A stretch of 64,000 nt of DNA from Escherichia coli. GTDB taxonomy: Bacteria > Pseudomonadota > Gammaproteobacteria > Enterobacterales > Enterobacteriaceae. Location: NCBI RefSeq assembly GCF_022846255.1, contig NZ_AP025682.1. The stretch is one strand, 5' to 3'. The position numbers are program-made. Positions 18,001 through 24,000 of the stretch are shown piece by piece (positions within the stretch are counted from its first letter, which is position 1; every line of letters begins with the position of its first letter).

Positions 18001-21000
18001 TGTCCAGTCCATTTCGCTGGCCTGCGCGCTGGTCTGTCTTTACGCCACGCTGATGTCGCTTTCATCGCCTTTGCAGGCCGGTGTCGACTTCACCCTCTTT
18101 CAATGTACTGACGCGGCAATCGCCATTCTGGCTGGCGTTATCGGTGGCGTTGTTGCTCAACATTTTGGCTATGCGGCCTGCTTCCTGTTTGCCGGGGCAT
18201 TCACGTTGCTGGCGGCGTGGGTTGCTTATATCCGGCTGCATTCGGCAAGAGAACTGATGACAAGCGCAATTGATTGATCCGGGAATAACACAGAGAGGTA
18301 AGGGATGAAAATCAGTGAATTTCTACATCTGGCGTTACCAGAGGAACAATGGCTACCGACGATTTCTGGCGTTTTACGCCAGTTCGCAGAAGAAGAGTGT
18401 TATGTCTATGAGCGTCAACCCTGTTGGTATTTAGGCAAAGGGTGCCAGGCACGGCTGCACATTAATGCCGACGGAACGCAGGCGACATTTATTGATGATG
18501 CTGGGGAGCAAAAATGGGCGGTGGATTCCATTGCCGACTGCGCGCGTCGTTTTATGGCGCATCCTCAGGTGAAAGGACGTCGGGTATATGGACAGGTTGG
18601 GTTCAACTTTGCGGCGCATGCGCGGGGGATTGCCTTTAACGCCGGGGAGTGGCCGCTGCTGACGTTAACCGTTCCCCGTGAAGAACTTATTTTTGAAAAG
18701 GGAAATGTCACCGTTTATGCGGACTCCGCCGACGGGTGCCGACGTTTGTGCGAGTGGGTAAAAGAGGCCGGTACAACGACGCAGAACGCACCACTGGCGG
18801 TGGATACCGCCCTCAATGGTGAGGCATATAAACAACAGGTTGCGCGCGCCGTTGCGGAGATCCGCCGTGGCGAGTATGTCAAAGTGATTGTCTCGCGCGC
18901 CATTCCCCTGCCATCGCGGATTGATATGCCCGCCACGCTGTTATACGGGCGGCAGGCAAACACGCCTGTGCGCTCGTTTATGTTCCGTCAGGAAGGACGC
19001 GAAGCGCTGGGCTTTAGCCCGGAACTGGTGATGTCAGTGACGGGCAATAAAGTGGTCACTGAACCGCTTGCGGGCACCCGAGATCGCATGGGAAACCCGG
19101 AGCATAATAAGGCGAAAGAGGCAGAACTGCTGCACGACAGTAAAGAGGTGCTTGAGCATATCCTTTCTGTCAAAGAAGCTATTGCTGAACTGGAGGCTGT
19201 TTGCCAGCCGGGCAGCGTGGTGGTTGAAGATTTAATGTCGGTTCGCCAGCGCGGCAGCGTTCAGCATCTGGGGTCTGGCGTGAGCGGTCAGCTTGCGGAA
19301 AACAAGGATGCCTGGGATGCGTTTACCGTGCTGTTTCCGTCGATTACCGCCTCAGGTATCCCTAAAAATGCTGCTCTGAACGCGATTATGCAAATTGAGA
19401 AGACGCCGCGAGAGCTTTATTCCGGCGCAATCCTGCTGCTGGACGATACGCGCTTTGATGCGGCGCTAGTTCTGCGTTCCGTATTTCAGGATAGCCAGCG
19501 CTGCTGGATACAGGCGGGGGCGGGAATCATCGCGCAATCTACGCCGGAACGCGAACTGACAGAAACCCGGGAGAAATTAGCGAGCATTGCGCCCTATTTA
19601 ATGGTGTAGGAGTAACTGTTTTCTAACCTCACAACCAGACTGTCCAAAGACAATTGAGTCGCTCTTTGATTCCTCTGTGACTCAATTGTCTTCTTTTGGG
19701 ATAAAATAGGTGTTTTTCGTCATGAAGTTGATAAAAGTCTATATAGAACCACCTCCTGTGGAGGTGGTGGTAATTTGCCAGAGTGTGGGATTCGTTAGTA
19801 TACTATGGGATAAACTTATTTTTACCAATTGTATAAGGCGGTGCATAAGATTCTCGGCATGCTTCCAGATAATCCGACCACCACTGCATCATCGCTTTGC
19901 GGGCTTCCAGGTGCTCTGCCTTATGAATATAAGCCATGCGCACGGTATTGCGCTCCTGATGACTCATCTGGCGTTCTACTGCGTCCTTTGCCCATAAACC
20001 CGATTCCATCAGCGCACTGCATGCCATTGCCCGGAAGCCGTGACCGCAGATATCCTTTTTCGTGTCGTAACCCATCACCCGCAGTGCCTTATTGACCGTG
20101 TTTTCACACATTGGCTTATACGGGTTATGGTCGCCGGGGAAGATCAGTTCATTATTACCGGTGATATCCTTAATCTGTTTCAGAATGGCGATGGACTGTT
20201 CTGAGAGGGGGACGATATGCGGCATTCGCATTTTTGCCCCGCGGCCGGAATAATGCACGCCAATAATGGGTTCTCGCGTCGCGGGTATCGTCCAGACTCG
20301 GTTTGTGAAATCAATCTCTGACCAGCGGGCGAAACGCAGTTCACTGGAGCGAATGAACACATGCAGCATCAGCAGAACGGCATGCCGGGTCAGTTCACGG
20401 CCCTGATGATATGCCTCAATACGTTCAAGCAGTTCAGGCAGCCGCTCCAGCGGCAGGGCAGGATAGTGCCGTCTGACAGGAGGTGTGGTCACGCCGCCAA
20501 GGTTTGCTGCAGGGTTCGTATCGATTAACTCCTGATGGACCGCATGGCGTATTATGTTACTCAGGTGCTGCCGTGTGCGGGACGCAACCTCCAGCAGACC
20601 TTTTTCCTCGATCCCTTTCTGCAGGTCAATGAAATGACGGGGTTTAAGTTCTGATACAGGTAGGTTCCCGATGACCGGAAAGATGTGATTGTTCAGGCTG
20701 GCAAGCAGACGGTCGGCGGTGTTCTGCGACCATTTCCTGTTACTTTTATGCCACGCCAGCGCCACGTTTTTAAAAACTTTCTCCGGTGTTCGTGAGCCAC
20801 GTACAGCAGCCCGCTGCTGTACCGGGTTGATATTCAGCGCCAGCATTTTACGGATACCTTCACGTTGCTGTCGCGCATCAGACAGGGAGATGGCTGGATA
20901 GGCACCCAGCGCAATGCGGGATTCTTTACCGCTAATACGGTATTTGAGATACCAGTGGCGGGAGCCACCCGGCTTGACCCGCAGATACAGACCGTGAGAA

Positions 21001-24000
21001 TCGGAGACTTTAAAGGGTTTATCAGAAGGCTTGAGGGTGCGGATTTTTGCGTCGGTAAGGGATATATGGGGGTCACTCCATTATCGAACTAACCTGACCC
21101 CAGATTTGACCACCAATTTTTCCCGATGCGTAGGGTAAAATCAAAATGCACCGAGAAGAGTTTTCACACTAACCTGTTGAATCAACATCAGATAAAGATT
21201 CGCAAGGATGCAAGAAAACAGAAAATTGGCTCCTCTGACTGGACTCGAACCAGTGACATACGGATTAACAGTCCGCCGTTCTACCGACTGAACTACAGAG
21301 GAATCGTGAGAACGGGGCGCATATTACTTAGCGGTACCTTGTCTGTCAACACTAAATTTCATAAGCCATTTCAATTGGTTAATTAATCTGCAAAGTTGTT
21401 AATTAATGAACATTCGTCGCCGAAAACGAGTCTGTATCATTAGCGTGATGCAGTCTCTGCAAAGGATCTTGTTGATAAAATTGGCAGAAACGTTGCCACA
21501 ATGAAGGGAAACGAGGAGCAAAAAGTTCTGGGGCGCTAAAGAAATATTCAGAAAGTACGGCAAAACATTCAGCAGGATCACTGGCAGCATAAGCATCGAT
21601 GCTCGCCGCATTCTCGCCAACCAACTCGATTTCTTCCTGAATGTTGTTCATTGCAGCATGAAGATCGTGTTCCCAGCCAGCAACCTCACGCAACGGAATA
21701 AAGGGAACTCCGCTGGCGCGATCGCCGTTACGGGTGTCCAGCTTATGAGCGACTTCATGAATAATCAGGTTAAAACCAGAAGCATCAAAAGAATCTTGTA
21801 TATCCAACCAGTTCAAAACGATAGGCCCTTGCTGCCAGCTCTGACCTGACTGAACAATACGTTGGTTATGCACCAGACCGATATCGTCTTCCCATTCATC
21901 ATCGACCACAAATGGCGCAGGATAAATTAAGACTTCATGAAAACCATCCAGCCATTCCAGTCCTAACTCCAGAACGGGCAGGCAAAATAGAAGTGCTATC
22001 CGGCAGCTTCTTAATGAATTCAGCTCAAAGCCCTGTAAAGGAACAAGCCGTTTTTGCTGTAAAAAACGTTCGGCAAGAGTGACTAATTTGCTTTGTTCCT
22101 GTTCCGTCAGACACGTTAAAAGGGGGATCGATAGTGCTTCCTGCCAGGGAAGGGCAGTTTGATGTGCTGATTCTTGTACTTTCCAGGGCCACTTAATCAT
22201 CGTTTTGCTCGCAAACTCGTCACTTGAACAAAATTGCACGGACAGGGACTGTTAAAATGCCAAATTTCCTGGCATCATGGCAACCATCTGAACGGAGAGA
22301 TGCCGGAGCGGCTGAACGGACCGGTCTCGAAAACCGGAGTAGGGGCAACTCTACCGGGGGTTCAAATCCCCCTCTCTCCGCCACTTTATCAATGACTTAT
22401 CTCCCGACTTCCCGCCTTGCTTTTCCTAAACAGAACAATCGTAGAATATTCTTGAAGGGTTAGATCGTCACTGTTTTCTGTTCGATACTGTGACATTCAG
22501 CACTTGATTCGCTATGGGTCTGACAGGAAGGTTTCGAGCGAAAATCTACAGTTATTCAGTCGTTTTCTTATCGGTCACCATTATTCTTTTAGACATTGAT
22601 CCTATGAAACTGCCGCAAAGTTGCTGGCGGGAACTGAAGTTGCGTAGAGAAGGGGTCAATAATTGAGCCAAAAAAGGAACGCGGCCGTCAGATTAAAGCC
22701 GCGGGACAAAGTCCATAATTTCCAAGAGTTGTTGAATTTCCCAGCTTTTTTGAAAGCCTTTGTATCATACTAACAAGTAAAAAAGGTTTAAATACCAAAA
22801 TTAACCTATATTTCTGGTTAGCTTTACCATGACAGATGACTTGCTCCTGGAGACATTGGCGCAGCCAGTCTGTATTGGTGAGTTGTGTATTTATTGTTCG
22901 CCGTTTTCTCAGTTTTTTTCTACAGACATAATAAAAAAGACACGTCTCAAGCATGAGCGTGTCTGAGTTTGTCTTATTTATTTGTCTTGGTAAATTATTG
23001 TCGTTACTACCAGGCACTGTTCTGTTAAATAATTGAAGTCAGCGCAAAAAAATCAATGAGACATCATCTCCTCGACCACTTCTTTGCTACTCAACTGATA
23101 TGGATAATACGTTGGCCAGTTTTCCATTTCATTCAATAAAGACTGTTGGGTATCATTACCCATAAAAATGTGAAAATGAGATGATTTTCGTGGTGCAATT
23201 ATATGATCGCTAAATTGAATATATTTAGGGGCTTTGCTTTCAGGATCTTTACATTCGAATAAGTAACGAACGCCTTTCTTGCCTGATTTATAGGTGAGTA
23301 TTTTGTATCCATCGTAATCATATTTACAGGATGTTGTTTCATTATGTCTATGGAATTCAACAATGCCGTCCTCAATGCCAATCATCTCGATATCTGTCAC
23401 ATAACCTTTGCGATAATAATCTTTAATTTCAGCAAATGTTTTGGTTTTATCTGCATCCGCTTTCTTCTGAAAGACGGGGTCAAGTTTGCCACTTTGCAGT
23501 AAAGGATAAACGGATTGCCAGACTCCATCCCAGTCACTGAGCGTTCGGTTTTGTACATTGGTATCATCAAAAACACCATTAGCAGCTTTTTGTTCGACCT
23601 CTGTTAAGGGTTTGCCGTGTGAGTGATGACCATGCGAAAAGGCAGGAGCGCTAACAATAAAGACGCCTAAAGCAACAGCCAGTTTATGAAGACGAATCGC
23701 CAAAACAGTTTCCTCCAGAGTTAATGTACATGATGTATAATGTTATATTGTAACATATGGCGAAATGCAATAACTCTTAGGAAACGAGAGCATAGTTTTC
23801 TCAGGTGTATTTTCCTATCTTATTGAAATAAAATAAATTATTCTGGTGATGAAAGGTTGATGACAAACGAAACATAACTTGATGCGATCTGTGTGGGCCG
23901 GATAGGGCGCTCGCGCCGCATCCGGCCGGGATAACGCGTACTTTGTTGGCAATATGAAGTTATAGAGATAATTTGTTGTGAACCTGCTTGCGTAACTGGT

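What the first reader, a model, noticed from the sequence alone, without database searches (positions are those of the whole stretch)
20846..21083. HPI integrase frame has no ATG/GTG/TTG initiator for its N-terminal 73 codons
The integrase frame is open from the TAA at 21081-21083 down to the first ATG at 20846. Those 73 upstream codons encode a typical P4-integrase N-terminus (ISLTDAKIRTLKPSDKPFKVSDSHGLYLRVKPGGSRHWYLKYRISGKESRIALGAYPAISLSDARQQREGIRK) but contain no ATG, GTG or TTG. The codon at 21065-21063 reads ATA exactly where an initiator Met would give a 420-aa protein. Either the start codon is mutated (ATG to ATA) and only a truncated protein from Met74 can be made, or translation starts non-canonically. 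A crippled integrase would help explain a stably fixed island.
Basis: partly seen in the sequence, partly recalled or inferred. Interest (0 to 1): 0.55.

Follow-up and report, generated by a model that had tools for sequence, protein, structure and literature searches.

The report
Start-codon loss in a relic integrase
The integrase gene of this E. coli yersiniabactin island really has ATA where relatives have the ATG start, but this common lesion sits in a gene already made useless when the island lost one attachment site, so it is ordinary gene decay.

Summary
On the minus strand the int frame opens after TAA 21083-21081. It reads ATA at 21065-21063, where homologues have ATG, and has no ATG/GTG/TTG until Met74 (20846).

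It is not a base-call error: 876 complete E. coli genomes carry the identical ATA leader (042, H10407, NCTC86, Nissle 1917 among them). RefSeq annotates a 420-aa CDS starting at the ATA, while one GenBank record calls the 347-aa Met74 product.

ATG is ancestral. It is found in other E. coli alleles, in an ICE-type HPI and in 9 of 10 other species. The tenth, [Erwinia] mediterraneensis, has ATA in a shattered pseudogene.

Both an ATA genome (042) and an ATG genome (JJ1886) lack the second 17-bp direct repeat, which is the published reason the E. coli island is fixed.

In these fixed islands int evolves neutrally: 17 nonsynonymous to 4 synonymous changes (dN/dS about 1.3), against 9:18 (0.16) between mobile-type relatives. 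It also carries other independent lesions: a 347-bp deletion, IS1 insertions and M74I.

Best reading: start-codon loss in a relic integrase, leaving at most trace AUA-initiated protein. Low interest. It matters mainly for annotation.

The parts
21063..21065 (-). ATA codon at the position of the ancestral ATG initiator of int (plus-strand T at 21063; C in ATG alleles)
   Evidence: Alignments show ATG in JJ1886, DA33133, DEC5E, C8, A24, LS4 and NIID080884. One search shows ATG in 9 of 10 other species.
19803..21065 (-). HPI integrase gene (int/intB): 420 codons plus stop if counted from the ATA. This matches the RefSeq CDS model (WP_024165620.1-like; the window has a private G217E change at 20416).
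   Evidence: PGAP CDS starts at the ATA. One search gives the Pfam hits: Arm-DNA-bind_3 residues 3-87, Phage_int_M 98-191, Phage_integrase 210-384. Searches show one difference from 042.
21081..21083 (-). In-frame TAA that closes the int frame upstream, so no upstream initiator is possible
21076..21079 (-). Shine-Dalgarno-like GGAG, 10 nt upstream of the ATA. It is the best anti-SD match of any candidate start in the first 100 codons (-5.9 kcal/mol).
   Evidence: The motif lies in a leader invariant in all E. coli alleles aligned and present by construction in the 11 scanned species.
20844..20846 (-). First in-frame ATG (Met74), with only a weak SD (AAGG, -3.9 kcal/mol). It would give a 347-aa product lacking most of the arm-binding domain. 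This is the gene model in GenBank BDH33064.1.
   Evidence: Met74 is itself mutated (M74I) in another ATA allele.
20805..21059 (-). Coding region of the Arm DNA-binding domain (residues 3-87), which is stranded without a canonical start
21227..21302 (-). tRNA-Asn (asnT), the integration site of the island
   Evidence: Annotated as tRNA-Asn in 042 and NCTC86.
21226..21242 (-). 17-bp attachment core CCAGTCAGAGGAGCCAA (left direct repeat). It is the only copy in the window.
   Evidence: It is also the only copy in 38 kb of 042 and of JJ1886. A second copy is present in the ICE-type island of DA33133.
21321..21349 (-). Promoter-like site (TTGACA-17-TAATAT) upstream of asnT. No terminator-like site lies between the tRNA and int, consistent with read-through transcription of int.
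   Evidence: PMC8209727 states that after integration the int promoter is replaced by the asn tRNA promoter.
18305..19609 (+). ybtS (irp9), the first yersiniabactin gene next to int. It identifies the island as the HPI.
   Evidence: The window is colinear with the 042 HPI over 21.3 kb, with 112 mismatches.

Best explanation
[quoted passage not shown] Its P4-type integrase gene has lost its initiator through a G-to-A transition (ATG to ATA).

The likely sequence of events, which is inferred:
1. The island lost its right-hand 17-bp direct repeat, so Int no longer had an excision substrate.
2. The gene then drifted neutrally.
3. The start-loss allele, together with other lesions in sister lineages, spread because the island's cargo (yersiniabactin) is kept. 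The island also moves between E. coli strains by homologous recombination of flanking DNA rather than by Int.

Functionally, full-length Int can now arise only from rare AUA initiation at the retained Shine-Dalgarno site. Reporter data suggest roughly 0.02-3% of AUG levels. A minor Met74 product would lack the arm-binding domain needed for attL x attR recombination. Either way the gene is effectively a pseudogene with an intact-looking frame.
For: Shown here:
- ATA is real and occurs in 876 complete genomes.
- ATG is the state in all other E. coli alleles sampled, in the ICE-type HPI of DA33133 and in 9 of 10 other species. The one other ATA is in a fragmented int remnant of [Erwinia] mediterraneensis.
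- 042 (ATA) and JJ1886 (ATG) both lack a second direct repeat. DA33133, which has a type IV secretion system and ATG, retains one.
- Substitutions on fixed-island int lineages are 17 nonsynonymous to 4 synonymous (dN/dS about 1.3), not different from neutral (p=0.8). Raoultella versus Klebsiella gives 9:18 (0.16). Fisher p=0.0014. The changes include radical replacements such as L204P, L121R, L149Q and G156D.
- Independent further lesions exist. One is a 347-bp deletion allele annotated as frameshifted (bp 124-470 in PMC2801613). Others are IS1 truncation in 2 of 6 sampled ATA genomes and M74I in another ATA allele.

From the literature:
- The E. coli HPI is fixed by deletion of the right border and spreads by homologous recombination (PMC2606025; PMC8209727).
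- AUA initiates at about 0.02-3% of AUG (bioRxiv 10.1101/063800).
Against: - Apart from codon 1, the frame is intact over 420 codons in 8 of the 10 ATA genomes examined, and the six catalytic residues are present by inspection.
- The SD is retained, and NCBI's pipeline models the ATA as a start, so trace full-length Int cannot be excluded.
- The dN/dS estimate rests on only 21 substitutions.
- The ATA sits on at least three int backgrounds with four-gamete violations. The number of origins and the order of events inside the fixed clade are therefore unresolved.
- No expression or excision data were available.
- The Yersinia start codon itself was not retrieved.
Confidence: 0.8

Rival explanations
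1. ATA is a genuine, selected weak initiator. It would keep Int at a very low level, for example to limit island loss or to act in trans on other asn-tRNA islands such as pks, much as AUU throttles infC.
For: - SD GGAG is retained at the normal distance.
- The ORF is full length in most ATA genomes sampled.
- PGAP annotates the ATA as the start.
- The allele is very common (876 genomes) and lies on several int backgrounds.
- AUA supports measurable initiation.
- The pks island in Nissle keeps its own att-proficient module nearby.
Against: - The non-AUG codon is not conserved in orthologues: all mobile-type relatives use ATG.
- The coding sequence shows no purifying selection in fixed islands.
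- ATA alleles accumulate further lesions: IS1, M74I and radical substitutions.
- The island has no attR for Int to act on.
- The only other ATA is in a wrecked pseudogene.
- The pks island has its own ATG integrase.
Confidence: 0.1
2. The working product is a 347-aa protein initiated at Met74 (the gene model in some GenBank records), made of the core-binding and catalytic domains only.
For: - Met74 is the first canonical start in frame.
- A weak AAGG lies 10 nt upstream.
- A promoter-like site at 20874-20845 overlaps it.
- GenBank BDH33064.1 is exactly this product.
Against: - The product would lack residues 1-73 of an Arm-DNA-binding domain spanning 3-87. By established knowledge of lambda/P4-type integrases, that domain is required for excisive and integrative recombination.
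- The SD is weaker than at the ATA.
- Met74 is mutated to Ile in another ATA allele.
- The gene shows the same neutral evolution.
Confidence: 0.06
3. The ATA is a sequencing or assembly error in this one record.
For: None beyond the general possibility of a single-base error.
Against: The identical sequence occurs in 876 independent complete genomes, and the 551-bp region matches well-known reference strains at 100%.
Confidence: 0.005

Closest known systems
Immobile (right-border-deleted) high-pathogenicity island of E. coli at asnT (Schubert et al., PMC2606025)
   Same: - tRNA-Asn, then int, then ybtS, in the same order.
- Colinear with the 042 HPI over 21.3 kb.
- Relatives carrying the same int allele lack the right direct repeat.
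   Different: The papers read here describe immobilisation through loss of the repeat and an int deletion variant. None that I could search mentions the ATG-to-ATA change.
Mobile ICE-type HPI (ICEEc1 / ICEKp1) integrase IntB
   Same: The same 420-aa P4-type integrase, more than 98% identical, with the same leader and SD.
   Different: The ICE-type copy (DA33133) has ATG, an intact second direct repeat, type IV secretion genes and an AlpA-family regulator gene. Comparison with Klebsiella shows purifying selection.
Known int-deletion variant of the E. coli HPI (bp 124-470 deleted; PMC2801613)
   Same: Another inactivating lesion of the same gene in the same fixed island. It is common in E. coli: about 17% of the sampled spread.
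   Different: It is a 347-bp deletion with a frameshift on an ATG background, and an independent event on a lineage that lacks the 1158 A>G change.
Regulated non-AUG starts in E. coli (infC AUU, pcnB AUU)
   Same: A near-cognate AUN codon behind a normal SD, and low initiation efficiency.
   Different: In those genes the rare codon is conserved across species and the protein is under selection. Here the orthologues use ATG and the gene drifts neutrally.

Membership tests
P4-type tyrosine integrase (lambda-integrase superfamily) | Three-part architecture: N-terminal arm-type DNA-binding domain, central core-binding domain, C-terminal catalytic domain | tested here: met
   Pfam hits: Arm-DNA-bind_3 residues 3-87 (E 6e-24), Phage_int_M 98-191 (E 1e-22), Phage_integrase 210-384 (E 7e-20)..
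P4-type tyrosine integrase (lambda-integrase superfamily) | Catalytic R-K-H-R-H-Y residues present | tested here: met
   By inspection of the translation against the family consensus (own knowledge): R239 (FIRSSEL), K278 (GAKMRM), H342 and R345 (GHGFR), H369 (MSHQ), Y379 (MAYIH). No structural check was made.
P4-type tyrosine integrase (lambda-integrase superfamily) | A translatable gene with a canonical initiator | tested here: not met
   ATA at codon 1. No ATG, GTG or TTG before codon 74, and an in-frame TAA five codons upstream.
E. coli immobile HPI | Insertion at asnT with int adjacent to the tRNA and the ybt genes next | tested here: met
   tRNA-Asn at 21227-21302, int at 19803-21065, ybtS at 18305-19609, and mtfA on the other side.
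E. coli immobile HPI | Right-hand 17-bp direct repeat deleted | not testable with these tools
   The fyuA end lies outside the window, which ends inside irp1. In 042, which has the same ATA allele, and in JJ1886 no second repeat exists within 38 kb even allowing 3 mismatches.
Functional non-AUG (AUN) initiation genes | The rare start codon is conserved among orthologues | tested here: not met
   9 of 10 other species and all other E. coli alleles have ATG. The one other ATA is in a fragmented pseudogene.
Functional non-AUG (AUN) initiation genes | The coding sequence downstream is under purifying selection | tested here: not met
   17 N to 4 S, dN/dS about 1.3, indistinguishable from neutral, against 0.16 in mobile-type relatives. 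The sample is small.
Functional non-AUG (AUN) initiation genes | Protein demonstrably initiated at the rare codon | not testable with these tools
   This needs initiation profiling or N-terminal proteomics.
Start-loss pseudogene | Ancestral ATG, derived non-start codon, no compensating in-frame start, and independent lesions in sister lineages | tested here: met

The most novel reading that the evidence does not exclude
The ATA is not mere decay but a selected 'dimmer'. The retained SD and intact frame would let AUA initiation supply a trickle of full-length Int that still matters. It might act in trans on neighbouring asn-tRNA islands that keep both repeats (such as pks). The ATG alleles within the fixed clade (JJ1886/ST131 type) might then represent restoration of the start.

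An even more remote variant: full-length Int could be made from the conserved upstream mini-ORF ATG-GAG-TGA (21081-21073) by a +1 shift at the UGA, giving MEDPHISLTD....
Probability: 0.06. Interest if true: 0.6.

Novelty: new member of a known kind. Interest (0 to 1): 0.2.

Why it matters
Mostly for bookkeeping. About 38-40% of E. coli genomes carrying this integrase have an int that looks full length but has no canonical start.

Pipelines disagree about it. PGAP aa from the ATA, while at least one GenBank record aa from Met74. PCR- or length-based statements that the HPI int is 'intact' therefore overstate function, and pangenome or GWAS gene clusters may split one gene in two.

Biologically it adds a third common lesion, after the right-border deletion and the 347-bp int deletion. 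Together with a neutral dN/dS signal, it supports the established picture that the E. coli HPI is a domesticated, immobile island spread by homologous recombination. It does not change that picture.

Tried and rejected
1. Base-call error: rejected by 876 identical genomes.

2. Crippled integrase as the cause of fixation: rejected. ATG-bearing fixed islands (JJ1886) also lack the second repeat, and the literature attributes fixation to that deletion.

3. Gene conversion of the JJ1886 5' end from the pks-island integrase, to explain ATG inside the 1158G clade. The Nissle pks int has ATG but not the JJ1886-specific AGC codon 5 or the -87A, so it is not supported. The four-gamete conflicts remain unexplained; recombination among HPIs or recurrent G>A are both possible.

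4. Yersinia reference start codon.
   - The conserved 20-nt leader probe hit 11 species but no Yersinia.
   - The only Y. pestis contig reached held just the C-terminal 223 aa.
   - So the Yersinia codon was not tested here.

5. Out-of-frame 80-aa GTG ORF (20834-21076, minus strand). The GTG overlaps the SD with no spacing, and the ORF is equally present in ATG alleles, so I treat it as a mechanical ORF.

6. Mini-ORF ATG-GAG-TGA with a +1 frameshift. There is no slippery P-site codon and no good SD for its ATG, so I consider it very unlikely. It was not tested.

7. Literature searches for a description of the ATA start found nothing relevant.
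Full report
**What is in the sequence**

Read on the minus strand, the region downstream of tRNA-Asn (21302-21227) contains a leader. The leader ends ...GATAATGGAGTGACCCCCAT and is followed by ATA TCC CTT ACC GAC GCA AAA ATC.

The int frame is closed upstream by TAA at 21083-21081. It reads W S D P H, then I S L T D A K I R..., and runs 420 codons from the ATA (21065-21063) to a stop at 19805-19803.

In that frame there is no ATG, GTG or TTG before the ATG at 20846, which is codon 74. 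Only near-cognates occur: ATA, ATC, CTG and ATT.

The translated protein is a complete P4-type integrase:
- Arm-DNA-bind_3, residues 3-87
- Phage_int_M, residues 98-191
- Phage_integrase, residues 210-384

ybtS follows at 18305-19609. The window is colinear with the yersiniabactin island of E. coli 042 for 21.3 kb. This is therefore the left end of the high-pathogenicity island (HPI) at asnT.

**Is it an error?**

No. The 551-bp region is 100% identical in many complete genomes, including 042, ETEC H10407, NCTC86 and VR50.

A 74-nt probe ending just past the codon is matched exactly by 876 complete genomes in its ATA form, including Nissle 1917 and ATCC 11775. The ATG form is matched exactly by 867. 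In all, 2,329 genomes have this leader.

A spread sample of the 65-nt probe suggests these rough proportions:

| Allele | Share or count |
|---|---|
| ATA | about 38-40% |
| JJ1886-type ATG | about 32% |
| ATG-TTC allele with an internal deletion | about 17% |
| ICE-type ATG | 76 genomes |

These counts are approximate, because paralogous asn-tRNA island integrases share the leader.

**How is it annotated?**

RefSeq/PGAP places the CDS start on the ATA itself and reports a 420-aa protein. Examples are WP_024165620.1 in 042, NCTC86, CE0032f and S1-CHI-01-A. The locus coordinate was checked.

In contrast, GenBank BDH33064.1 is exactly the 347-aa Met74 product of this window, on a 4.94-Mb contig that is probably the source genome. 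Pipelines therefore disagree about this gene.

**Polarity of the change**

ATG is present in:
- every other E. coli allele aligned: JJ1886, LS4, C8, DA33133, DEC5E, A24, NIID080884, KKa019 and PEC399
- the Nissle pks-island integrase
- 9 of the 10 other species recovered with the conserved leader: Klebsiella pneumoniae, K. spallanzanii, K. indica, Raoultella species, Superficieibacter, Izhakiella, Pantoea, Affinibrenneria and Martelella

The single exception is [Erwinia] mediterraneensis, which also reads ATA. There the integrase is broken into 151-aa and 114-aa fragments, so it is a dead gene.

ATA is therefore derived. Yersinia itself was not retrieved, so that particular reference remains untested here.

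**Why the island is fixed**

The 17-bp attachment core CCAGTCAGAGGAGCCAA occurs once in the window, at the tRNA end. The fyuA end of the island lies outside the window.

| Genome | Start codon | Second copy of the repeat |
|---|---|---|
| 042 | ATA | none within 38 kb, allowing 3 mismatches |
| JJ1886 | ATG | none within 38 kb, allowing 3 mismatches |
| DA33133 | ATG | perfect second repeat about 66 kb from asnT |

DA33133 carries an ICE-type island with type IV secretion genes, mobC and an AlpA-family regulator gene. Its int differs by one synonymous base from the Raoultella planticola gene.

This matches the literature. All but one ECOR HPI share a unique right-border deletion that removes the repeat and makes site-specific mobilisation impossible. 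The island spreads by homologous recombination of large fragments (PMC2606025; also PMC8209727).

The island's stability therefore does not need a crippled integrase. ATG-bearing islands are just as fixed.

**Is int still under selection in fixed islands?**

I polarised substitutions with the Raoultella/ICE-type sequence as outgroup. The fixed-island lineages examined were 042/window, NCTC86, Nissle, isolate 30859_5#287, JJ1886, LWY24 and the deletion allele.

- These lineages carry 17 nonsynonymous and 4 synonymous changes.
- That gives dN/dS of about 1.3, not different from the neutral expectation of 76% nonsynonymous sites (p=0.8).
- Raoultella versus K. pneumoniae shows 9:18, or dN/dS 0.16 (p=3e-6 against neutral).
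- The two ratios differ (Fisher p=0.0014).
- Many changes are radical: L204P, L121R, L61Q, L149Q and G156D.

Independent gross lesions exist as well:
- The 347-bp deletion allele, annotated as frameshifted. It corresponds to bp 124-470 as described in PMC2801613.
- IS1 cutting int after nt 993 in 2 of 6 sampled ATA genomes.
- M74I in one ATA allele, which removes the fallback Met as well.

The numbers are small, but all point the same way: the gene is drifting.

**What can still be made?**

The native GGAG (21079-21076) is retained 10 nt upstream of the ATA. It is the best anti-SD match among candidate starts in the N-terminal region (-5.9 kcal/mol). Met74 has only AAGG (-3.9 kcal/mol).

An asnT promoter-like site (TTGACA-17-TAATAT) lies at 21349-21321. 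No terminator-like hairpin lies between the tRNA and int. This fits the reported read-through transcription of int from the tRNA promoter.

Reporter measurements put AUA at roughly 0.02-3% of AUG in E. coli (bioRxiv 10.1101/063800). A trace of full-length Int is therefore possible. A Met74 product would lack most of the arm-binding domain.

Neither product has a substrate on this island.

**Unresolved detail**

The ATA sits on at least three int backgrounds: 042-type, Nissle-type and 30859_5-type. Site 3 conflicts with sites 86, 263 and -148 under the four-gamete test.

Either HPI copies have recombined, which is plausible given how the island spreads, or the G>A change recurred. I could not decide between these. 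A test of gene conversion from the pks integrase as the source of the JJ1886 5' end was negative.

**Verdict**

This is a real, common and apparently undescribed start-codon loss. No paper in the searchable library mentions it. It is best explained as neutral decay of an integrase whose island had already lost one attachment site.

Its causal suggestion is not needed and probably has the order of events backwards.

Interest is low. The practical value is for annotation consistency and for not equating a 'full-length int' with a functional one.

Noticed in passing
L016:1090-2450 ([Erwinia] mediterraneensis NZ_LR026978.1): An HPI-type integrase next to tRNA-Asn also reads ATA at codon 1, with a spacer one base shorter. 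The gene is fragmented (151-aa and 114-aa ORFs) and no ybt genes follow. This is an independent start loss in a remnant.
   Followed up: partly
L043:1331-2593 (E. coli isolate 30859_5#287, NZ_OZ040756.1): An ATA allele that also carries M74I, so both Met1 and the fallback Met74 are gone. PGAP still annotates it as a 420-aa CDS (WP_024175719.1).
   Followed up: partly
L039:1331-2665 and L044:1331-2665 (E. coli LWY24, E70): IS1 is inserted in int after nt 993 on the ATA background, giving a C-terminally truncated pseudogene. It was seen in 2 of 6 ATA genomes sampled at even steps.
   Followed up: partly
window 21066-21129 (minus strand), the leader between asnT and int: The roughly 64 nt upstream of the start are invariant in all E. 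coli alleles aligned, including the divergent A24 integrase. The 20-mer GTTAGTTCGATAATGGAGTG is shared by 11 species in different genera, so the leader is more conserved than the coding sequence. It contains a mini-ORF, ATG-GAG-TGA (21081-21073). It may hold Int arm sites or a regulatory element.
   Followed up: no
window 19806-20846 versus 19803-21065: The annotation is split. GenBank BDH33064.1 is the 347-aa Met74 product identical to this window. RefSeq models the same gene as 420 aa starting at the ATA. The 420-aa 042-type protein is on record on at least 1000 contigs.
   Followed up: yes
L045:331-1246 (E. coli NIID080884) and L010, L011: A third common E. coli allele has ATG-TTC (S2F), three leader substitutions and a 347-bp internal deletion, and is annotated as frameshifted. 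It lacks the 1158 A>G change shared by the other fixed-island alleles, so it branched earlier.
   Followed up: partly
L025:331-1593 (E. coli JJ1886, ST131): The ATG allele of the fixed island has an adjacent two-base change (GAC to AGC, D5S) 10 nt from the start codon, plus -87A. This cluster at the 5' end is not explained by the pks integrase sequence.
   Followed up: partly
L001:370-1420 (E. coli 042), beside tRNA-Ser; window tRNA-Ser at 22294-22383: In 042 a second, frameshifted tyrosine integrase with prophage genes lies next to the tRNA-Ser beyond mtfA. I did not examine what follows tRNA-Ser in the window.
   Followed up: no
window 20834-21076 (minus strand): An 80-codon GTG ORF lies in the +1 frame overlapping the int N-terminus. 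Its GTG overlaps the SD and it is present in ATG alleles too, so it is probably meaningless.
   Followed up: no
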